This document shows, piece by piece, positions 114 to 10,000 of a stretch of 10,000 nucleotides of DNA. The notes beneath the pieces are model-generated. The model was not told the origin of the DNA. It ran no database searches and saw only the letters and a program-made list of their open reading frames with translations. The position numbers were made by a program, and so were the translations under genes. The DNA lies in the IMG/VR virus record IMGVR_UViG_2690316285_000012; one strand, 5' to 3'. How positions within the stretch are numbered: position 1 is the first letter of the stretch; the number at the start of each line of letters is the position of its first letter. This DNA comes from a virus. Its lineage: Duplodnaviria; Heunggongvirae; Uroviricota; Caudoviricetes.

Positions 114-748
114 TCATTTTCTCTGGCTGATCTTTACCGGATAACCATCCCGAAGATCAATTAAGTGCTCCGGTTCAGAAGCAAACCATGCATAAGATCC
201 CCACGCCAATTCTGGTATTGCCTTTTTAAAAGGCAGAGCACTTCTGTCCATAAATGCCGTAAGGAATGCAAGATTTTTCTCGCTGAACCCAGCGTCAATA
301 GCCAAATGAGTGAGAGTAACTTTTCGTTCCCTGTTTATAGGCCCATCTGTCGCAACTACTTCAGTGAAAACTACAAGCATGTCCGAACCCGTTCGGTCCT
401 CTCCCAAATCAATCAAAATAATATCTGGAAGTGCTTTTGAGGCATCAATATTCAGCCCCAATGCTTTTGCCAATACATCATCCTGAGCAACAACTTTATT
501 CCCGGATTCAGACAACCAGAGCACAGTTGGATTCTTAAGAAAATTAGGAGCAAAAACTTCGATGACGGCCTTAGCTATTGTACTTGACGGGCCCGGAGCT
601 AAAGTTCTCTTCTCTCCATTTGGGAAAGTGACGACTACGACATCAGCAGCAATCACTGCCCCTGATTTCAATAAACGCAACCTAGCAAGAGCGGCTTTGT
701 TCAAATGATTTTCTTGCCAGGAACTTATTGCACTCAGCAGCGAATCTC
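114..748 (-). CDS. Putative type II restriction endonuclease, C-terminal portion (BsuBI/PstI-like candidate); 5' end lies in masked block
   Basis: ORF-track ORF 114..704 (TTG start) is open upstream to the mask at 748. Sits directly downstream and co-directional with the MTase. Has an acidic PD...D/E-type stretch (LPDIILIDLGEDRTG...VVFTEVV). Family assignment is from memory of motif patterns, not a search. Confidence 0.5.
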
Positions 749-749
749 C

Positions 750-1187
750 NNNNNNNNNNNNNNNNNNNNNNNNNNNNNNNNNNNNNNNNNNNNNNNNNNN
801 NNNNNNNNNNNNNNNNNNNNNNNNNNNNNNNNNNNNNNNNNNNNNNNNNNNNNNNNNNNNNNNNNNNNNNNNNNNNNNNNNNNNNNNNNNNNNNNNNNNN
901 NNNNNNNNNNNNNNNNNNNNNNNNNNNNNNNNNNNNNNNNNNNNNNNNNNNNNNNNNNNNNNNNNNNNNNNNNNNNNNNNNNNNNNNNNNNNNNNNNNNN
1001 NNNNNNNNNNNNNNNNNNNNNNNNNNNNNNNNNNNNNNNNNNNNNNNNNNNNNNNNNNNNNNNNNNNNNNNNNNNNNNNNNNNNNNNNNNNNNNNNNNNN
1101 NNNNNNNNNNNNNNNNNNNNNNNNNNNNNNNNNNNNNNNNNNNNNNNNNNNNNNNNNNNNNNNNNNNNNNNNNNNNNNNNNNNNNNN
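750..1187. other. N-masked block (438 nt); further blocks at 1459-1728, 2591-3258, 5302-5714, 5885-6180
   Basis: Runs of n in the sequence. Any ORF segment shown as X in the track is unknown sequence. Confidence 1.
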
Positions 1188-1422: not shown

Positions 1423-3450
1423 TCAATTAACGATTGAATCTCCATCACCTGCTCCAGANNNNNNNNNNNNNNNNNNNNNNNNNNNNNNNNNNNNNNNNNN
1501 NNNNNNNNNNNNNNNNNNNNNNNNNNNNNNNNNNNNNNNNNNNNNNNNNNNNNNNNNNNNNNNNNNNNNNNNNNNNNNNNNNNNNNNNNNNNNNNNNNNN
1601 NNNNNNNNNNNNNNNNNNNNNNNNNNNNNNNNNNNNNNNNNNNNNNNNNNNNNNNNNNNNNNNNNNNNNNNNNNNNNNNNNNNNNNNNNNNNNNNNNNNN
1701 NNNNNNNNNNNNNNNNNNNNNNNNNNNNCTGAGGTAAAATTGCCGCTAAAATCCTTCTGTCCTGTTCCTTCGATGTTGTCCGCTGAACAAGCACACATTC
1801 AGATTTTGTCACAAGGAAACCCTGTTGTGGGGTTATATCGATATAGGGAACATGATTTTTTCTGTCTGCACTAAAACGAAAACCAGCTGAAGTTATTGAT
1901 TCCGCCCAGACTAATGGGTAGCTATTTTTTCCTTTCGTCGTACGCAACTGCGACTTAAATCGATTCCAGACTAACTGACCTGTAGAGACTGAGTATCCCA
2001 GATCAGCTAAACGCGTAGACATCTGTTTTAATACATTAAGAAAACAGGCATCATCTTTAACGCGTGGCAAAAGCCACGTTGCTCCACCTTTTTCTATATC
2101 AACATTACCTATTTTCTCAATTTTTGCTTTGTTCAACCCCTTAGGGACAAGTGAGGATACCTGGGCCCGAACTTTATGTTCTCCCGCCTTGAATGCTGTC
2201 AACATTGTTTCCTGGAGAACATCGTCAAAGACCCCATCCCTGTCAGTGACGAAATCAAGGGCATACGGAGTAGTTTTTTCGGTCAAAAGGGTTCGCAGCG
2301 CGGTGAAATACTGCCCACCAAGAAAAGAAGTTGGCGTAAGAAATGCAATAACTCCTGTTTTCTCTTTAACCATGCGAACAGCTAAGTCGGTGAACAATCC
2401 ATATAGATTTGCATGACCAAATAACGAACGAGAATATTTTTCTCTCGTTTTAATATCGAGAGTGACACGTCCGTAAGGCGGATTCCCTACCACAAGATCA
2501 TAACCAGAAAATTTATCTTGCTGAAGCGCATCAGCAACAATAATTGTATCTTCAGGCAATCTACGTTTTACCTTTACACATAGTGGCATTNNNNNNNNNN
2601 NNNNNNNNNNNNNNNNNNNNNNNNNNNNNNNNNNNNNNNNNNNNNNNNNNNNNNNNNNNNNNNNNNNNNNNNNNNNNNNNNNNNNNNNNNNNNNNNNNNN
2701 NNNNNNNNNNNNNNNNNNNNNNNNNNNNNNNNNNNNNNNNNNNNNNNNNNNNNNNNNNNNNNNNNNNNNNNNNNNNNNNNNNNNNNNNNNNNNNNNNNNN
2801 NNNNNNNNNNNNNNNNNNNNNNNNNNNNNNNNNNNNNNNNNNNNNNNNNNNNNNNNNNNNNNNNNNNNNNNNNNNNNNNNNNNNNNNNNNNNNNNNNNNN
2901 NNNNNNNNNNNNNNNNNNNNNNNNNNNNNNNNNNNNNNNNNNNNNNNNNNNNNNNNNNNNNNNNNNNNNNNNNNNNNNNNNNNNNNNNNNNNNNNNNNNN
3001 NNNNNNNNNNNNNNNNNNNNNNNNNNNNNNNNNNNNNNNNNNNNNNNNNNNNNNNNNNNNNNNNNNNNNNNNNNNNNNNNNNNNNNNNNNNNNNNNNNNN
3101 NNNNNNNNNNNNNNNNNNNNNNNNNNNNNNNNNNNNNNNNNNNNNNNNNNNNNNNNNNNNNNNNNNNNNNNNNNNNNNNNNNNNNNNNNNNNNNNNNNNN
3201 NNNNNNNNNNNNNNNNNNNNNNNNNNNNNNNNNNNNNNNNNNNNNNNNNNNNNNNNNNTACGATGCTGAAGCAGTATGAGCGGGCATGCATCAACCTTGA
3301 CTGCCCGGTTTTGTAATTGCCCGCATAACCTTTGGCCATGGCTTTACAAGTTTGATATCTTTCCAGATTAGAAAACTCATTATCTGTAAAAAAATCAAAA
3401 TGTTGCACATTCATAATGTAAAATCCTAATGTATCAAACATGCGGGCCAT
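1423..3450 (-). CDS. N6-adenine DNA methyltransferase (gamma-class, Eco57I/TaqI-like) with target-recognition region; long form about 675 aa if continuous through masks
   Basis: Catalytic motif IV DLVVGNPPYG visible at 2460-2490 region. One uninterrupted frame connects the visible segments 3259-3450, 1729-2590 and 1423-1458 across both masks. Region is AT-rich relative to its neighbours. Confidence 0.75.
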   Translation of the reverse strand: MARMFDTLGFYIMNVQHFDFFTDNEFSNLERYQTCKAMAKGYAGNYKTGQSRLMHARSYCFSIVXXXXXXXXXXXXXXXXXXXXXXXXXXXXXXXXXXXXXXXXXXXXXXXXXXXXXXXXXXXXXXXXXXXXXXXXXXXXXXXXXXXXXXXXXXXXXXXXXXXXXXXXXXXXXXXXXXXXXXXXXXXXXXXXXXXXXXXXXXXXXXXXXXXXXXXXXXXXXXXXXXXXXXXXXXXXXXXXXXXXXXXXXXXXXXXXXXXXXXXXXXXXXXXXXXXXXXXXXXXXXXXMPLCVKVKRRLPEDTIIVADALQQDKFSGYDLVVGNPPYGRVTLDIKTREKYSRSLFGHANLYGLFTDLAVRMVKEKTGVIAFLTPTSFLGGQYFTALRTLLTEKTTPYALDFVTDRDGVFDDVLQETMLTAFKAGEHKVRAQVSSLVPKGLNKAKIEKIGNVDIEKGGATWLLPRVKDDACFLNVLKQMSTRLADLGYSVSTGQLVWNRFKSQLRTTKGKNSYPLVWAESITSAGFRFSADRKNHVPYIDITPQQGFLVTKSECVLVQRTTSKEQDRRILAAILPQXXXXXXXXXXXXXXXXXXXXXXXXXXXXXXXXXXXXXXXXXXXXXXXXXXXXXXXXXXXXXXXXXXXXXXXXXXXXXXXXXXXXXXXXXXSGAGDGDSIVN

Positions 3451-5268: not shown

Positions 5269-5884
5269 TCACAACTCCCGGAAAGCTGACATTTGAACGC
5301 CNNNNNNNNNNNNNNNNNNNNNNNNNNNNNNNNNNNNNNNNNNNNNNNNNNNNNNNNNNNNNNNNNNNNNNNNNNNNNNNNNNNNNNNNNNNNNNNNNNN
5401 NNNNNNNNNNNNNNNNNNNNNNNNNNNNNNNNNNNNNNNNNNNNNNNNNNNNNNNNNNNNNNNNNNNNNNNNNNNNNNNNNNNNNNNNNNNNNNNNNNNN
5501 NNNNNNNNNNNNNNNNNNNNNNNNNNNNNNNNNNNNNNNNNNNNNNNNNNNNNNNNNNNNNNNNNNNNNNNNNNNNNNNNNNNNNNNNNNNNNNNNNNNN
5601 NNNNNNNNNNNNNNNNNNNNNNNNNNNNNNNNNNNNNNNNNNNNNNNNNNNNNNNNNNNNNNNNNNNNNNNNNNNNNNNNNNNNNNNNNNNNNNNNNNNN
5701 NNNNNNNNNNNNNNTACCCATCGCCGCTGCAAGGTGATTTTTCCCGGTGCCGGTTTTACCGCTGAACACAAAATTCGTGCACCCGGTCATCAGTTCGTCA
5801 GCTATGGATTTGGCCTGGCTCAGCGCGTATTTTTGCCCGTCGTTCTGCACCTGATAATTCGCAAACGAGCATTTGCTGTGCAGA
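5269..5884 (-). CDS. DnaC-family AAA+ helicase loader (phage P-analog / YdaV-like); 5' end in masked block
   Basis: Visible stretch KCSFANYQVQNDGQKYALSQAKSIADELMTGCTNFVFSGKTGTGKNHLAAAMG closely parallels the E. coli DnaC Walker A region (FSGKPGTGKNHLAAA). Frame stays open upstream into mask 5885-6180; same frame ends at 5269 after mask 5302-5714. Confidence 0.75.
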
Positions 5885-6180
5885 NNNNNNNNNNNNNNNN
5901 NNNNNNNNNNNNNNNNNNNNNNNNNNNNNNNNNNNNNNNNNNNNNNNNNNNNNNNNNNNNNNNNNNNNNNNNNNNNNNNNNNNNNNNNNNNNNNNNNNNN
6001 NNNNNNNNNNNNNNNNNNNNNNNNNNNNNNNNNNNNNNNNNNNNNNNNNNNNNNNNNNNNNNNNNNNNNNNNNNNNNNNNNNNNNNNNNNNNNNNNNNNN
6101 NNNNNNNNNNNNNNNNNNNNNNNNNNNNNNNNNNNNNNNNNNNNNNNNNNNNNNNNNNNNNNNNNNNNNNNNNNNNNNNN

Positions 6181-7228: not shown

Positions 7229-7654
7229 TCAATGTACTGCCACAGCATTTCCTGCCGGGCCACCACGGTTCATCTGATTGAAACCGGCGATTGCCACTGC
7301 GACAAAATCATCAGCGTCTCTCACCAGTCGTTCATGCGTCTCCACCAGTTCCCGAAAATAAGCTGAACTGTGGCTGCGCATTCGAGCCACCAGCGGAGGT
7401 GGCATTGCCCTTTCGATCGCAGGTAACAACGCCTGAATTTTTTCAACAGCGTCAGGGGTGTCTTTATCCAGCCAACGGAAAATCTTTTGGGTGTTGAGAT
7501 AAAGCGTGTTGTGCTTGCTGTCGTTATGCAGAACCGGAAACGTCATTCCCAGTTCGAAATAAACCCTGGTTATTTCAGCTGCCGGAACTTTTTCACCGTC
7601 CGGATGCGCCCAGGCTTTCATCGCCATGCGGATGTGTTCATGCTTGATTTTCAT
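7229..7654 (-). CDS. ydaT: YdaT-like protein (proposed cII analog / toxic prophage regulator), 141 aa
   Basis: ATG at 7654 overlaps the upstream gene stop (ATGA). N-terminus MKIKHEHI and the size match recalled Rac YdaT. Position is Cro-like gene, then this gene, then replication genes. Confidence 0.65.
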   Translation of the reverse strand: MKIKHEHIRMAMKAWAHPDGEKVPAAEITRVYFELGMTFPVLHNDSKHNTLYLNTQKIFRWLDKDTPDAVEKIQALLPAIERAMPPPLVARMRSHSSAYFRELVETHERLVRDADDFVAVAIAGFNQMNRGGPAGNAVAVH

Positions 7655-7914
7655 GAATCAACCCCCGCCGATGGTTGTGTGTTAGCCTGAAACTCAGCAG
7701 GCAAGCCGTCAGTTGGGTTGGGGTAGGTTTTACTGTCAATCTCATGTGGGGTCACCACCCATCCCGTTGCTTCACACCAACGTAATATTTTTTCTCCTGT
7801 AAGTTTTGCACGCCCCGTTATAACGTGGCTGACCATCCCTTGGGATGCGCCAACAATCTCAGCAAATGAACTCTGGGTTATATGAAAATGATGCAAATAT
7901 TCTCCAAGATTCAT
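7651..7914 (-). CDS. ydaS: Cro-like HTH protein (YdaS-like), 87 aa from ATG 7914
   Basis: HTH segment SSFAEIVGASQGMVSHVITGRAKLTGEKI. Divergent from the repressor gene and first gene of the rightward operon. ATG 7914 has an AGGGCGG RBS; ORF-track TTG start at 7941 is the alternative. Symbol assigned by synteny with Rac. Confidence 0.6.
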   Translation of the reverse strand: MNLGEYLHHFHITQSSFAEIVGASQGMVSHVITGRAKLTGEKILRWCEATGWVVTPHEIDSKTYPNPTDGLPAEFQANTQPSAGVDS

Positions 7915-7948
7915 AATCCGCCCTATGTGATGTGTTACCAATGCATAA

Positions 7949-7990
7949 TTAATAGCACTGTTATTTTTAAAAGTAAATAGTGATGCTATT
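7949..7990 (-). promoter_or_regulatory. OR-like region: two 15-bp palindromic operators (7951-7965 AATAGCACTGTTATT; 7976-7990 AATAGTGATGCTATT) overlapping a PR-like promoter
   Basis: Minus-strand -35 TTTACT (7972-7977), 17-bp spacer, extended -10 TGcTATTAA (7949-7957). The operators overlap the -35 and -10 elements. Confidence 0.55.
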
Positions 7991-8018
7991 TCAAAGTGAT
8001 TAGCAATCTTATTAGAAT
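7990..8018 (+). promoter_or_regulatory. Candidate PRM-like promoter for the repressor gene (-35 TTCAAA 7990-7995, -10 TAGAAT 8013-8018)
   Basis: 17-bp spacer. Predicted start site falls at or just before the ATG at 8026, implying a leaderless or near-leaderless mRNA. Abuts operator 7976-7990. Confidence 0.3.
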
Positions 8019-8025
8019 TGGATGT

Positions 8026-8526
8026 ATGAAAAGAAAATCATTGTCAGACACCGACCTCAACGCCGCCAGAAGACTGAAAGAAATCTGGATGGCAAAGAAA
8101 TCTCAGTTGGGATTGACTCAGGAACGTGCGGCGGAAATTATGGGGTTTTCAACACAAGGGGCGGTAAGTCACTACCTAAATGGTCAAACCCCACTAAACC
8201 TTGAGGCTGTTCTAAAGTTTGCTGGCTTACTGAAAGTTCCCCCTGAGTCAATCAGGCCAGACATGGTAGATTTGCTGCAAATTGCAAGGATGTATTGTCG
8301 AGAACCACAGCAAGATAACATAGTCGCATTACCAGCAGACACAGAACAAACAGAGGATGAACTACCGTTTGCCGTAGAGCCGATGGAACGAGATTTAATC
8401 CATACGTTCAGAGCTTTTCCGAAAGAAGATCAAGAACACATGCTTCAGGAGATGAAAGATAAAAAAGAATCAATGGATCGTACGGTTGCGCGGTGGTTAG
8501 CTGCACAAAAAGGCCGTCGCGCCTAA
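8026..8526 (+). CDS. paaR2: Cro/CI-family prophage repressor (RacR/PaaR-type), 166 aa from ATG 8026
   Basis: HTH segment LGLTQERAAEIMGFSTQGAVSHYLNG. Divergent from the Cro-like gene across an operator-containing intergenic region and first gene of a three-gene operon with antitoxin and ParE toxin. No S24 peptidase domain is evident. ORF-track GTG start 7996 is the alternative. Symbol by architecture only. Confidence 0.65.
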   Translation: MKRKSLSDTDLNAARRLKEIWMAKKSQLGLTQERAAEIMGFSTQGAVSHYLNGQTPLNLEAVLKFAGLLKVPPESIRPDMVDLLQIARMYCREPQQDNIVALPADTEQTEDELPFAVEPMERDLIHTFRAFPKEDQEHMLQEMKDKKESMDRTVARWLAAQKGRRA

Positions 8527-8545
8527 ATCAGAGGAGATATGTAAA

Positions 8546-8740
8546 ATGAGTACAGTCCTTTCCCCAATGGTTTCAGAATTTGAGACAGTTGAGCAAGAAA
8601 ATAGTTACAACGAATGGCTGCGGGCCAAAGTAGCAGCAAGCCTCGCGGATCCCCGCCCGGCGATTCCGCATGATGAGGTAATGGCGGAAATGGAACAAAT
8701 TATTGCCCAAATTGCTGCTGCAACTCACAGAGGTGAATAA
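8546..8740 (+). CDS. paaA2: Small antitoxin (PaaA2/ParD-like), 64 aa
   Basis: GAGGAG RBS 9 nt upstream. Stop TAA overlaps the toxin ATG (TAATG). Small acidic protein immediately upstream of a ParE-family toxin. Symbol by architecture and size. Confidence 0.6.
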   Translation: MSTVLSPMVSEFETVEQENSYNEWLRAKVAASLADPRPAIPHDEVMAEMEQIIAQIAAATHRGE

Positions 8741-9030
8741 TGTTACCCGTTTTATGGCTACCATCTGCTCGTGATGATTTGCGCCAGATCGTAGCCTACA
8801 TAGCTAAAGAAAATCCCGCGGCAGCACGCAGAATGAAAATTCGAATTGAAACATCCGTTTTGCCGCTCACAGAGCATCCTTACCTGTATCCTCCAAGCGA
8901 GCGAGTTCTTGGTCTTCGTGAAATTGTAACTCATCCTAACTACATCATCCTTTACCGAGTAACAGCATCAAGCATAGAAGTAGTAAATATTGTGCATTCT
9001 CGAAGACAGTATCCAGGCAAAAACAGTTAA
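8740..9030 (+). CDS. parE2: ParE/RelE-superfamily toxin, 96 aa
   Basis: Typical ParE pattern: W...A..DL..I..YIA.ENPAAA.R....I, then YIILYRV and VVNIVH near the C-terminus. Translationally coupled to the upstream antitoxin. Confidence 0.75.
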   Translation: MLPVLWLPSARDDLRQIVAYIAKENPAAARRMKIRIETSVLPLTEHPYLYPPSERVLGLREIVTHPNYIILYRVTASSIEVVNIVHSRRQYPGKNS

Positions 9031-9044
9031 TTATTCCCGCCGAC

Positions 9045-9070
9045 AGAACCACCTTAGGGTGGTTTTTTCT
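9045..9070 (+). terminator. Rho-independent terminator after the repressor-TA operon
   Basis: Stem AACCACC (9047-9053) / GGTGGTT (9058-9064), loop TTAG, followed by a T-run 9063-9068. Lies 15 nt after the parE stop. Confidence 0.6.
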
Positions 9071-9086
9071 TGCCCCAACAAAAAAC

Positions 9087-9129
9087 AATAGCGATGCTAT
9101 TTACATCAAAAAAATAATGATGCTATTGT
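9087..9129 (+). promoter_or_regulatory. OL-like region: two 15-bp palindromic operators (9087-9101 AATAGCGATGCTATT perfect; 9113-9127 AATAATGATGCTATT) overlapping a PL-like promoter
   Basis: -35 TTTACA (9100-9105), 18-bp spacer, extended -10 TGcTATTGT (9121-9129). Same operator-promoter architecture as the 7949-7990 region, in the opposite orientation relative to the repressor gene. Confidence 0.55.
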
Positions 9130-9308
9130 TTCAGGCGTCAACCCACCCCGCCCCACAGAATGCAGGGCAATACTTCGAGTTACCAGACAGTGGTCAGGGG
9201 TTAAGTAGCCAGCCCGAGGCGTAAGAACATGACGGCAGGGTTCAATCTTTAACTATGCAGCAGGTTTTTTGTTCCGCCACCCCGGCGTTAAGGGGAAATG
9301 AGGTCAGC

Positions 9309-9461
9309 ATGGATACTATCGATCTTGGCAACAACGAATCTCTGGTGTGCGGCGTGTTCCCTAACCAGGATGGAACGTTTACCGCCATGACGTATACCAA
9401 AAGCAAAACGTTTAAAACCGAATCTGGCGCGCGTTGCTGGTTAGCCAGAAACACTGACTGA
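9309..9461 (+). CDS. Small early-left protein, 50 aa (YdaF/YdfA-like, DUF1391-type candidate)
   Basis: ATG 9309 with GAGG 5 nt upstream; the ORF-track start 9255 lacks an RBS. Sequence MDTIDLGNNESLVCGVFPNQDGTFTAMTYTKSKTF. First gene downstream of the PL-like promoter. Confidence 0.5.
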   Translation: MDTIDLGNNESLVCGVFPNQDGTFTAMTYTKSKTFKTESGARCWLARNTD

Positions 9462-9838: not shown

Positions 9839-10000
9839 TCCCTGCGTCCTCTAAGCTTTTGATATAGCGGTCCTCCAAGAAGCGGTAAATTTTGTCGAAA
9901 TCATCTTTTCCCTCTGGTTTATTCAGAGGATTACAGGACCCGTAAGTAGCGGCATACATTTCAACCGTTTGGTAATGACTCCAACTTATTGATAGTGTTT
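9807..10000 (-). CDS. Partial hypothetical CDS entering from the right edge (3' end only)
   Basis: Minus-strand frame is open from the window edge to TGA at 9807-9809 (at least 64 codons, ...EMYAATYGSCNPLNKPEGKDDFDKIYRFLEDRYIKSLEDAG...). Overlaps the 3' end of the plus-strand ORF by 32 nt. Not in the ORF track because the in-window ATG-to-stop span is only 50 aa. Confidence 0.3.
   Translation of the reverse strand, partial: TLSISWSHYQTVEMYAATYGSCNPLNKPEGKDDFDKIYRFLEDRYIKSLEDAGIKSPVKSPLS

What the first reader, a model, noticed from the sequence alone, without database searches (positions are those of the whole stretch)
7996..9070. Three-component regulator-antitoxin-ParE module occupies the rexAB-equivalent slot of the immunity region
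The repressor gene is followed 19 nt later by a 64-aa antitoxin whose stop overlaps the start of a ParE-family toxin, then a terminator. This matches the described PaaR2-PaaA2-ParE2 three-component systems of E. coli O157 prophages. Here the regulator's position (divergent from the Cro-like gene, bracketed by operator pairs) suggests it is also the lysogeny repressor. That would couple prophage maintenance to toxin-antitoxin expression, analogous to lambda cI-rexA-rexB co-transcription.
Basis: partly seen in the sequence, partly recalled or inferred. Interest (0 to 1): 0.55.

Follow-up and report, generated by a model that had tools for sequence, protein, structure and literature searches.

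The report
Prophage repressor–antitoxin–ParE toxin operon
This is a real but ordinary member of a published kind of system, a PaaA/ParE toxin–antitoxin pair transcribed behind the repressor gene of a lambda-like E. coli prophage; its only new feature is that the repressor has a lambda-cI-type DNA-binding head.

Summary
Window 8026-9030 (+) holds three tightly packed genes:
- a 166-aa HTH regulator
- a 64-aa PaaA2-family antitoxin, 19 nt downstream
- a 96-aa ParE toxin that starts on the antitoxin stop (TAATG)

An intrinsic terminator follows at 9045-9071.

ParE is 86% identical to ParE1 of CP-933M and 67% identical to ParE2. PaaA is 77% and 75% identical to PaaA1 and PaaA2.

The surroundings form a complete lambda-style immunity region:
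- a divergent cro-like gene and ydaT (cII analogue), with its exact published operator
- three OR and two OL copies of a 15-bp palindrome overlapping candidate PR, PRM and PL
- a PRM -10 hexamer 7 nt before an ATG with no Shine-Dalgarno sequence, implying a leaderless mRNA

It is also the published model for paaR2-paaA2-parE2 of CP-933P (Jurenas 2021; Prolic-Kalinsek 2023), which already says that paaA2-parE2 replace rexA-rexB.

What is new is minor. This regulator shares only its last ~45-64 residues with PaaR1 and PaaR2. Its N-terminal domain is homologous to the lambda cI N-terminal domain.

The allele is common. It occurs in 72 complete E. coli genomes, including O104:H4 and O145:H28.

Verdict: new member of a known kind, low interest.

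The parts
7229..7654 (-). ydaT, the cII-analogue activator (141 aa)
   Evidence: Pfam YdaT_toxin E 5e-9. PDB 3c4r E 4e-79 and CP-933P YdaT 8bt1 E 3e-70 over the full length. 81% identical to CP-933M YdaT and 77% to the CP-933P-type YdaT.
7644..7661 (.). YdaT operator OM, TTGATTTTCATGAATCAA, spanning the ydaS stop and ydaT start
   Evidence: Exact match to the published TTGATTN6AATCAA site (PMC9986795; search). The identical 18-mer sits at the same position in L002, L003 and L004.
7651..7914 (-). cro-like / YdaS-like HTH gene (87 aa from ATG 7914)
   Evidence: Weak HTH_3 match, E 5e-4. 36% identical to the CP-933M ydaS-like protein. RefSeq annotates the same start in homologues.
7949..7977 (-). 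candidate PR (TTTACT-17-TATTAA), driving cro-like, ydaT and the replication genes
   Evidence: Read from the sequence and conserved in homologues. Missed by the consensus scan because the -10 ends in A. Inferred, not shown.
7951..7965 (.). operator OR1, AATAGCACTGTTATT, overlapping the PR -10 and spacer
   Evidence: Outer half-sites conserved in the O145 homologue.
7976..7990 (.). operator OR2, AATAGTGATGCTATT. It overlaps the PR -35 and abuts the PRM -35.
   Evidence: Perfect match to the consensus. In O145 the centre is changed but AATAG...CTATT is kept.
7999..8013 (.). weak operator OR3, ATTAGCAATCTTATT, inside the PRM spacer and -10
   Evidence: Four mismatches to the consensus, read from the sequence. 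Centre-to-centre spacing of 25 and 23 bp is like lambda OR (my own knowledge). Conserved in homologues. Inferred.
7990..8018 (+). candidate PRM, TTCAAA-17-TAGAAT. The -10 ends 7 nt before ATG 8026, implying a leaderless mRNA.
   Evidence: Promoter scan. No Shine-Dalgarno sequence before ATG 8026. Same arrangement as the experimentally leaderless paaR2 and cI (PMC8630535).
8026..8526 (+). prophage repressor / TA regulator (166 aa): lambda-cI-like N-terminal HTH domain plus a PaaR/DicA-type C-terminal domain
   Evidence: HTH_3 E 8e-9. Lambda cI N-terminal domain 1lmb E 3e-9 over residues 2-81. The C-terminal domain is 56% identical to PaaR1 and 52% to PaaR2. It also matches DicA profile positions 74-130, E 7e-8, and DicA itself at 29%. 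No Peptidase_S24 hit.
8546..8740 (+). PaaA-family antitoxin (64 aa) with no DNA-binding domain
   Evidence: PF21217 E 3e-23. NCBIfam NF050103 E 3e-27. PDB PaaA2 3zbe E 1.4e-23. GAGGAG Shine-Dalgarno sequence upstream.
8740..9030 (+). ParE-family toxin (96 aa), translationally coupled to paaA (TAATG)
   Evidence: PF05016 E 1.8e-17. PDB ParE2 5cw7 E 6.7e-37. 86% identical to ParE1 of CP-933M. dN/dS 0.054.
9045..9071 (+). intrinsic terminator of the repressor-paaA-parE operon
   Evidence: -15.1 kcal/mol, z -3.1. Inverted repeat I16. Conserved in L001 and L002.
9087..9101 (.). operator OL2, AATAGCGATGCTATT, overlapping the PL -35
   Evidence: Conserved in L001; half-sites conserved in L002.
9113..9127 (.). 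operator OL1, AATAATGATGCTATT, overlapping the PL -10
9100..9129 (+). candidate PL, TTTACA-18-TATTGT (TG-extended), driving ydfA and downstream early-left genes
   Evidence: Promoter scan. Same operator and -35 overlap as at PR. Analogous to the published PL933P.
9312..9461 (+). ydfA (DUF1391), first gene of the PL operon
   Evidence: PF07151 E 1e-28. 90% DNA identity to Qin ydfA. Same position in all homologous loci.

Best explanation
Window ~7229-9130 is the immunity region of a lambdoid (Qin/CP-933-type) E. coli prophage. A PaaA-ParE type II toxin-antitoxin pair is transcribed as the distal part of the prophage-repressor operon.

The 166-aa repressor has a lambda-cI-like HTH head and a PaaR/DicA-type C-terminal oligomerisation tail, with no LexA-type cleavage domain. 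It binds 15-bp palindromes (AATAG-N5-CTATT) at OR and OL.

Binding is inferred to shut off PR (cro-like, ydaT, replication genes) and PL (ydfA and downstream). The repressor's own promoter PRM is inferred to make a leaderless repressor-paaA-parE mRNA that ends at the terminator at 9045-9071.

PaaA has no DNA-binding domain, so expression of the TA pair depends on this prophage switch. That means PRM, plus a YdaT-activated PRE-type start near the conserved YdaT operator.

ParE is a ParE-family toxin neutralised by the unstable PaaA. The most likely role is addiction: cells that lose or replace this part of the prophage are poisoned, which stabilises the immunity region.

Shown here: gene identities, gene packing, operator repeats, terminator, mosaic structure and purifying selection.

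Inferred from CP-933P experiments on homologues: co-transcription, leaderless start, repression logic, bistability, toxicity, ClpXP/ClpAP-dependent PaaA turnover and post-segregational killing.
For: Gene identities.

Packing (19-nt gap, TAATG overlap) and Shine-Dalgarno pattern. There is no Shine-Dalgarno sequence before the regulator, GAGGAG before paaA, and AGAGGTG inside paaA before parE.

A single terminator follows parE. No promoter-like site was found between 8142 and 9099.

The operator motif is enriched, 6 matches against 0.39 expected with 0 of 200 shuffles reaching that. It is placed over the -35 and -10 of candidate PR, PRM and PL. The outer half-sites are kept in a homologue whose repressor is only 80% identical.

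The exact YdaT operator lies at the ydaS/ydaT junction.

dN/dS is 0.05-0.08.

The same skeleton occurs in CP-933M, in the CP-933P-type locus, and in O145, O104:H4, O18 and other strains.

Published experiments on the homologous system are in PMC8630535, PMC9986795 and PMC4803016, which summarises Hallez 2010.
Against: Nothing has been measured for this allele. Promoters and operators are consensus-level inferences, and the total number of promoter-like hits in the region does not exceed shuffles (4 against 3.3 +/- 1.9).

OR3 is weak (4 mismatches) and only two OL sites were found, whereas three are reported for CP-933P.

An internal promoter-like site at 8113-8141 could give repressor-independent transcription of the TA pair.

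In CP-933P no ParE2 activity was detected in either switch state, so the physiological role remains open.

PaaA-ParE pairs in alpha- and betaproteobacteria exist without any PaaR-type gene, so the pair can be expressed without such a regulator.
Confidence: 0.82

Rival explanations
1. The TA pair's main job is phage exclusion or abortive infection, a functional as well as positional counterpart of lambda RexAB, rather than addiction of the immunity region.
For: It occupies the slot downstream of the repressor that rexAB occupy in lambda and is expressed from the lysogenic promoter. The same prophage carries another defence moron, a PstI/BsuBI-type R-M system. In CP-933P no toxin activity was seen under steady-state conditions, which leaves the role open.
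Against: There is no match to any PADLOC defence family. The experiments reported for homologues show plasmid stabilisation by post-segregational killing. The papers I read report no phage-challenge data.
Confidence: 0.15
2. The pair is an autonomous two-gene TA module with its own promoter. It merely landed next to the prophage repressor, so there is no three-component operon here.
For: Two-gene PaaA-ParE modules without a PaaR-type gene are the rule outside the enterobacteria. 22 of 36 GTDB loci had no upstream ORF in the 250 nt searched, and none had a PaaR C-terminal domain. There is an internal promoter-like site at 8113-8141. Hallez 2010, as summarised, reports partial autorepression by PaaA-ParE.
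Against: The gap is only 19 nt, with no promoter-like site and no terminator between the regulator and paaA. PaaA has only the toxin-binding PaaA2 domain. Co-transcription from the paaR promoter was shown for the homologue. The regulator C-terminal domain, paaA and parE are inherited as one block across immunity types.
Confidence: 0.07
3. The 166-aa protein is only a dedicated TA regulator. The true lysogeny repressor of this prophage lies elsewhere.
For: It lacks the S24 autocleavage domain of classical cI repressors. The prophage is interrupted by IS1 and may be defective.
Against: Its operators overlap the promoters of the cro-like/replication operon and of the early-left operon, not only its own. 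Its N-terminal domain is homologous to the lambda cI N-terminal domain. It occupies the dicA/cI position. PaaR2 was shown to repress PR and PL.
Confidence: 0.04

Closest known systems
paaR1-paaA1-parE1 of cryptic prophage CP-933M, E. coli O157:H7 EDL933 (Hallez et al. 2010; locus L003)
   Same: Same gene order and the same flanks (ydaT, ydaS-like, regulator, paaA, parE, terminator, ydfA). ParE is 86% identical and PaaA 77%. The regulator C-terminal domain is 56% identical over 64 aa. The YdaT operator is identical.
   Different: The regulator N-terminal domain, the operators and the N-terminal part of the cro-like gene are not homologous. DNA homology breaks at 7725 and resumes at 8399. The window regulator is 166 aa against 133 aa.
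paaR2-paaA2-parE2 within the CP-933P immunity region (Jurenas et al. 2021, PMC8630535; Prolic-Kalinsek et al. 2023, PMC9986795; PDB 5cw7, 3zbe, 7nkv, 8bt1)
   Same: The architecture and the inferred logic match:
- repressor = cI analogue, with a leaderless-type promoter
- YdaS = Cro analogue and YdaT = cII analogue, with the same operator
- OR and OL operator sets
- the TA pair in the rexAB slot
- no S24 domain
   Different: ParE is only 67% identical and PaaA 75%. The regulator shares only its last 44 aa (52%). The PaaR2 N-terminal domain (PDB 7nkv) does not match the window protein, which matches the lambda cI N-terminal domain instead. The operator sequence also differs (AATAG-N5-CTATT against the GTTTAGTAA-type repeats).
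Lambda cI-rexA-rexB with OR/OL
   Same: The N-terminal HTH domain, including the basic N-terminal arm, is homologous to lambda cI (E 3e-9). OR has a tripartite layout with ~23-25-bp spacing. The -10 hexamer lies 7 nt before the ATG. Cargo genes are co-transcribed with the repressor.
   Different: There is no LexA/S24 C-terminal domain, so no RecA-mediated cleavage is expected. The cargo is a ParE TA pair with no similarity to RexA/RexB. The cII analogue is a YdaT POU-type protein.
DicA/DicC immunity region of cryptic prophage Qin (E. coli K-12)
   Same: The skeleton is the same: dicC divergent from dicA, then ydfA-ydfB-ydfC...dicB. The DicA C-terminal domain is homologous to the window regulator C-terminal domain (29% over 51 aa, E 2e-6; NCBIfam DicA profile E 7e-8). 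ydfA DNA is 90% identical.
   Different: Qin has no TA pair between dicA and ydfA. The DicA N-terminal domain differs. The window protein scores 32 bits against the DicA family cutoff of 101, so it is not a DicA orthologue.
Canonical two-gene ParD-ParE (e.g. RK2, Vibrio cholerae parDE2), and two-gene PaaA-ParE modules of Bartonella, Acetobacteraceae and Sphingomonadales
   Same: Same ParE toxin fold family, and an antitoxin that neutralises by wrapping around the toxin.
   Different: The ParD antitoxin carries its own DNA-binding domain and autoregulates. Here DNA binding is supplied by a separate prophage repressor. The non-enteric PaaA-ParE pairs lack the upstream PaaR-type gene.

Membership tests
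PaaR-PaaA-ParE three-component TA system (Hallez 2010) | ParE-superfamily toxin homologous to ParE1/ParE2 | tested here: met
   PF05016 E 1.8e-17. PDB ParE2 E 6.7e-37 over residues 1-93. 86% identical to ParE1 and 67% to ParE2.
PaaR-PaaA-ParE three-component TA system (Hallez 2010) | PaaA-type antitoxin: a short protein with a toxin-binding domain only and no DNA-binding domain | tested here: met
   64 aa, with PF21217 PaaA2 (E 3e-23) as the only Pfam hit. PDB PaaA2 E 1.4e-23.
PaaR-PaaA-ParE three-component TA system (Hallez 2010) | A third gene for an HTH regulator immediately upstream, in the same transcription unit | tested here: met
   At sequence level only: 19-nt gap, no intervening terminator or promoter-like site, one terminator after parE. 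Co-transcription itself was not measured.
PaaR-PaaA-ParE three-component TA system (Hallez 2010) | Regulator homologous to PaaR1/PaaR2 | tested here: inconclusive
   Only the C-terminal 44-64 residues are homologous (52-56% identity, E 4e-15 to 6e-23). The N-terminal DNA-binding domains give no hit to each other. PaaR1 and PaaR2 themselves also differ in their N-terminal domains.
PaaR-PaaA-ParE three-component TA system (Hallez 2010) | Toxin is toxic, the cognate antitoxin neutralises it, and the antitoxin is degraded by ClpAP/ClpXP | not testable with these tools
   Requires expression and rescue assays. dN/dS of 0.05 shows only that the genes are under purifying selection.
Lambdoid immunity region with a cI/Cro/CII-type switch (as defined for CP-933P, PMC8630535) | Divergent repressor and cro-like genes sharing a multi-operator intergenic region that overlaps both promoters | tested here: met
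   111-bp intergenic region with three palindrome copies at 7951, 7976 and 7999, overlapping candidate PR and PRM.
Lambdoid immunity region with a cI/Cro/CII-type switch (as defined for CP-933P, PMC8630535) | A second operator set at a PL-type promoter on the far side of the repressor operon | tested here: met
   Two operator copies at 9087-9101 and 9113-9127, overlapping the -35 and -10 of TTTACA-18-TATTGT.
Lambdoid immunity region with a cI/Cro/CII-type switch (as defined for CP-933P, PMC8630535) | cII analogue (YdaT) with its TTGATTN6AATCAA operator between ydaS and ydaT | tested here: met
   YdaT matches PDB 8bt1, E 3e-70. The exact operator lies at 7644-7661.
Lambdoid immunity region with a cI/Cro/CII-type switch (as defined for CP-933P, PMC8630535) | Leaderless repressor mRNA | tested here: inconclusive
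   The -10 hexamer TAGAAT ends 7 nt before ATG 8026 and there is no Shine-Dalgarno sequence. This is consistent with a leaderless mRNA, but the transcription start site was not measured.
Lambda cI / LexA-type repressor family | N-terminal lambda-repressor-like HTH domain | tested here: met
   PDB 1lmb, 1rio and 3bdn, E 3e-9 to 1e-8 over residues 2-81/90.
Lambda cI / LexA-type repressor family | C-terminal S24 (LexA-like) autocleavage and dimerisation domain | tested here: not met
   No Peptidase_S24 hit. The protein is 166 aa and its C-terminus is the PaaR/DicA-type helical tail. It is therefore not a cI-family member as a whole, only in its head.
DicA subfamily (NCBIfam NF007257) | Full-length match above the curated cutoff | tested here: not met
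   32.4 bits against a cutoff of 101. Only profile positions 74-130 match.
RacR (Rac prophage repressor) | Sequence similarity to RacR | tested here: not met
   blastp gives no hit at E <= 10.
RexAB-type or other catalogued anti-phage defence system | Match to a known defence-protein profile | tested here: not met
   PADLOC returns no family for any of the three proteins.

The most novel reading that the evidence does not exclude
The unit that stays together is [repressor C-terminal domain + paaA + parE], while [cro-like N-terminal part + OR + repressor DNA-binding head] is swapped among at least three unrelated head classes: lambda-cI-like, PaaR1-like and PaaR2-like.

The TA pair may actively police immunity-region replacement. 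Only recombinants whose crossover falls inside the repressor gene, at the head/tail linker, keep the antitoxin and survive. If so, the toxin would shape where lambdoid mosaic boundaries fall and would generate natural hybrid repressors.

An extension of this reading is that the conserved tail communicates with PaaA-ParE.
Probability: 0.2. Interest if true: 0.4.

Novelty: new member of a known kind. Interest (0 to 1): 0.2.

Why it matters
It matters little beyond annotation. It shows that the PaaR-PaaA-ParE module embedded in the immunity switch is not peculiar to two O157 cryptic prophages. The cassette is in 842 of 5,426 complete E. coli genomes, and it rides behind at least three different repressor heads.

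The lambda-cI-like head gives sequence-level support to the published claim that PaaR-type regulators are cI equivalents, which had been made 'despite lacking sequence similarity'.

The breakpoint inside the repressor gene is a concrete, testable prediction of the published idea that the TA pair guards the immunity region against replacement.

Practically, the three genes should be annotated as prophage repressor (PaaR-type), PaaA antitoxin and ParE toxin, and ydaT should not be annotated as a toxin.

Tried and rejected
- **GTG 7996 as the regulator start:** rejected in favour of ATG 8026, on the RefSeq annotation of homologues, the alignment to the lambda cI N-terminus, and promoter geometry.
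none. Rac YdaS also gave no hit, and Rac YdaT is only 33% identical.
- **PADLOC defence profiles:** nothing for the three proteins.
- **Rfam and tRNA scans of the window:** nothing.
- **Terminator scan:** the consensus scan missed the parE terminator. Folding and the inverted-repeat search found it.
- **Megablast against phage genomes:** it matched only the flanks (ydaT and ydfA, 28% coverage), with other immunity regions in between. A protein search found PaaA in just one of 50,697 phage records, phage Evi, which carries the PaaR2 type.
- **GTDB scan with the PaaA alignment:** it returned only non-enteric two-gene modules. These were useful as a contrast but say nothing about the regulator.
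- **PDB search with PaaR2:** only its N-terminal domain is deposited (7nkv, 8c3k, 8c3l). There is no structure for the shared C-terminal tail.
- **Not run:** the large protein-database searches and AlphaFold, because neither could change the verdict.
Full report

Yes. On the + strand the sequence shows the following.
- An HTH gene ends at TAA 8524-8526.
- After a 19-nt gap containing GAGGAG, a 64-codon ORF starts at ATG 8546.
- Its stop, TAA 8738-8740, shares one base with the ATG 8740-8742 of a 96-codon ORF that ends at 9030.
- The stem-loop GAACCACC-UUAG-GGUGGUU plus U-run lies at 9045-9071. It folds at -15.1 kcal/mol, z -3.1, and is conserved in homologous loci.

The real start is almost certainly ATG 8026, giving 166 aa, for three reasons.
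- RefSeq uses the ATG start in homologues.
- The N-terminus MKRKSL aligns from residue 2 with the lambda cI N-terminal arm.
- GTG 7996 lies between the hexamers of the predicted promoter.

**2. What the three genes are.**

*Antitoxin.* It matches Pfam PaaA2 (PF21217, E 3e-23) and NCBIfam NF050103 (E 3e-27). It also matches the solved PaaA2 chain 3zbe (E 1.4e-23). It has no other domain.

*Toxin.* It matches ParE_toxin (PF05016, E 1.8e-17) and solved ParE2 5cw7 (E 6.7e-37).

I extracted the characterised loci from complete genomes.
- L003 is EDL933/ATCC 43894 CP-933M, i.e. paaR1-paaA1-parE1.
- L004 is ATCC 25922. Its regulator starts MQKKE, as published for PaaR2, and its ParE is identical to the PDB ParE2 sequence.

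| Window protein | vs system 1 (CP-933M) | vs system 2 (CP-933P type) |
|---|---|---|
| ParE | 86% | 67% |
| PaaA | 77% | 75% |

*Regulator.* It is a mosaic.
- Residues 2-81 match the lambda cI N-terminal domain (1lmb, E 3e-9).
- Only the last 44-64 residues match PaaR1 (56%) and PaaR2 (52%).
- The same tail matches positions 74-130 of the DicA profile and K-12 DicA itself (29%, E 2e-6).
- There is no Peptidase_S24 domain.
- The solved PaaR2 N-terminal domain (7nkv) belongs to a different head class.

All three genes are under strong purifying selection. dN/dS against the O145:H28 homologue is 0.084, 0.054 and 0.054.

**3. The surroundings form a complete lambda-type immunity region.**

*Divergent genes on the - strand.*
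- A cro-like HTH gene lies at 7651-7914. It is 36% identical to the CP-933M ydaS-like protein.
- ydaT lies at 7229-7654 (PDB 8bt1, E 3e-70).
- The published YdaT operator TTGATTN6AATCAA occurs exactly once, at 7644-7661, across the ydaS stop and ydaT start. The identical 18-mer sits at the same place in L002-L004.
- Further left lie O-like and DnaC-like replication genes, DUF1627 and DUF977.

*Operators.* A 15-bp palindrome, AATAGYGATGCTATT, occurs at four sites: 7951, 7976, 9087 and 9113. That is 6 strand-matches against 0.39 expected, and 0 of 200 shuffles reach 6 (also D1, I1 and I3-I6). A weaker copy lies at 7999-8013.

*Overlap with promoters.*
- The OR copies overlap candidate PR (TTTACT-17-TATTAA, - strand) and PRM (TTCAAA-17-TAGAAT, + strand).
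- The two downstream copies overlap the -35 and -10 of a PL-like promoter, TTTACA-18-TATTGT, that faces ydfA.
- In the O145:H28 homologue the repressor is only 80% identical. The outer AATAG/CTATT half-sites are kept there while the centres vary. That is the pattern expected for real operators.

*Leaderless start.* The PRM -10 ends 7 nt before ATG 8026 and there is no Shine-Dalgarno sequence. The experimentally leaderless paaR2 and cI have the same arrangement.

**4. Comparison with the literature.**

Jurenas et al. 2021 (PMC8630535) worked on CP-933P. They showed, or argued from experiments, the following.
- PaaR2 is a functional cI analogue with a leaderless mRNA.
- YdaS is a Cro analogue and YdaT a cII analogue.
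- PaaR2 and YdaS bind repeats in the 97-bp intergenic region and at a downstream PL933P.
- The locus is bistable.
- PaaR2 lacks the autocleavage motif.
- The locus stabilises a mini-F plasmid.

Prolic-Kalinsek et al. [quoted passage not shown]

A review summarises Hallez 2010 (PMC4803016).
- The three genes are co-transcribed from the paaR promoter.
- PaaA-ParE represses only partially, and PaaR is needed for full repression.
- PaaA1 and PaaA2 do not cross-neutralise.

**5. What is particular here.**

*Mosaic boundaries.*
- DNA homology to CP-933M runs 7231-7725, breaks, and resumes at 8399-9452.
- Homology to the CP-933P-type locus breaks at 7665 and resumes at 8461.
- The immunity-specific block is therefore the cro-like N-terminal part, OR and the repressor head.
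- The repressor tail, paaA and parE travel together.

*Regulator head classes.* I sampled eleven regulators upstream of paaA-parE in E. coli and found three unrelated head classes.
- Lambda-cI-like, 166 aa: the window, O145:H28, STEC299 and O104:H4.
- PaaR1-like, 132-133 aa, with sub-variants 51-62% identical.
- PaaR2-like, 123 aa.

All eleven share the tail, at 44-100% identity. One strain carries two tandem regulators, which looks like a recombination scar.

*Relation to Qin.* Qin of K-12 has the same skeleton, dicC divergent from dicA followed by ydfABC-dicF-dicB, without the TA pair.

*Distribution.*
- The cassette occurs in 842 of 5,426 complete E. coli genomes.
- The window-type 2-kb region is covered at 80% or more in 72 genomes.
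- 43 of the 80 best IMG/VR matches carry the 166-aa regulator, and several are 99.9% identical to the window.
- Among 50,697 phage records only phage Evi carries a PaaA. It has an intact PaaR2-PaaA2-ParE2 with parE2 left unannotated.
- Outside the enterobacteria, PaaA-ParE pairs have no PaaR-type gene upstream. These are in Bartonella, Acetobacteraceae, Sphingomonadales and some Burkholderiales.

**6. Mechanism.**

*Shown here:* gene identities, packing, operators, terminator, mosaic structure and selection.

*Inferred from the homologous system:*
- The repressor binds OR and OL and silences PR and PL.
- PRM produces a leaderless repressor-paaA-parE mRNA.
- YdaT can activate an alternative start near its operator.
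- PaaA, labile to ClpXP/ClpAP, neutralises ParE.
- Loss of the region frees ParE, which is the addiction effect.
- Without an S24 domain, the switch should not respond directly to RecA.

*Rivals considered:*
- a Rex-like exclusion role (possible and untested; no PADLOC match)
- an autonomous TA pair with its own promoter (unlikely, given the 19-nt gap and block inheritance)
- a regulator that is not the prophage repressor (unlikely, given where the operators lie)

**7. Verdict.**

This is a genuine, well-formed feature that has been interpreted correctly, and it belongs to a described system type. It counts as a new member of a known kind because its regulator carries a head class (lambda-cI-like) that is not among the two characterised systems. 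Interest is low, at 0.2.

The most novel reading still open is that the TA pair constrains where immunity regions can recombine. The breakpoint inside the repressor gene is consistent with that reading but does not demonstrate it.

Noticed in passing
window 9971-10000: The window ends in the outer end of an IS1 element (GGTAATGACTCCAACTTATTGATAGTGTTT). Near-identical IMG/VR contigs stop about 20 nt beyond the window end. The early-left (PL) operon is therefore cut by IS1 after ydfA and a 125-aa ORF, which suggests a defective prophage.
   Followed up: partly
window 114-704 (-) and 1423-3450 (-): The same prophage carries a Type II restriction-modification pair downstream of the replication/DUF977 block. 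The endonuclease is of the BsuBI/PstI family (Pfam E 2e-45; PADLOC REase_II E 5e-69). The methyltransferase is Eco57I-type N6 (PADLOC MTase_II E 4e-149). This is a defence moron.
   Followed up: partly
window 750-1187, 1459-1728, 2591-3258, 5302-5714, 5885-6180: Five runs of N mask parts of the R-M genes and of the replication genes. They do not touch the finding.
   Followed up: no
L005-L040 (GTDB genomes): PaaA2-type antitoxins 45-80% identical to the window's occur with ParE in Bartonella, Acetobacteraceae, Sphingomonadales, Rhodobacterales and some Burkholderiales. None has a PaaR-type gene upstream. The two-gene form is the widespread one, and the three-gene prophage form looks enterobacterial.
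   Followed up: partly
L127 (E. coli 2013C-4974) 969-1832: Two tandem regulator genes precede paaA-parE. One is PaaR2-like (123 aa). The other is PaaR1-like, with an extended C-terminus that overlaps paaA. This is apparently a scar of recombination between immunity types.
   Followed up: no
L129 (Escherichia phage Evi LR597642) 2109-2972: This is the only phage record among 50,697 with a PaaA match. It carries an intact PaaR2-PaaA2-ParE2, but parE2 (about 2694-2972) is not annotated in the record.
   Followed up: partly
window 7229-7654 (-): Pfam and RefSeq label YdaT as a 'toxin YdaT family protein'. Published work shows it is a cII-like DNA-binding activator and not a toxin. This is an annotation trap.
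   Followed up: yes
window 9130-9310 (+): A ~180-nt non-coding stretch between PL and ydfA is highly conserved across immunity types, at 87-90% identity to L002, L004 and, from 9271, Qin. It has no Rfam match. It may be a leader or nut-like region of the early-left transcript.
   Followed up: no
window 8113-8141 (+): A promoter-like site (TTGACT-17-AATTAT) lies inside the regulator gene. If active, it could give repressor-independent transcription of paaA-parE. The total count of promoter-like hits in the region does not exceed shuffles.
   Followed up: no
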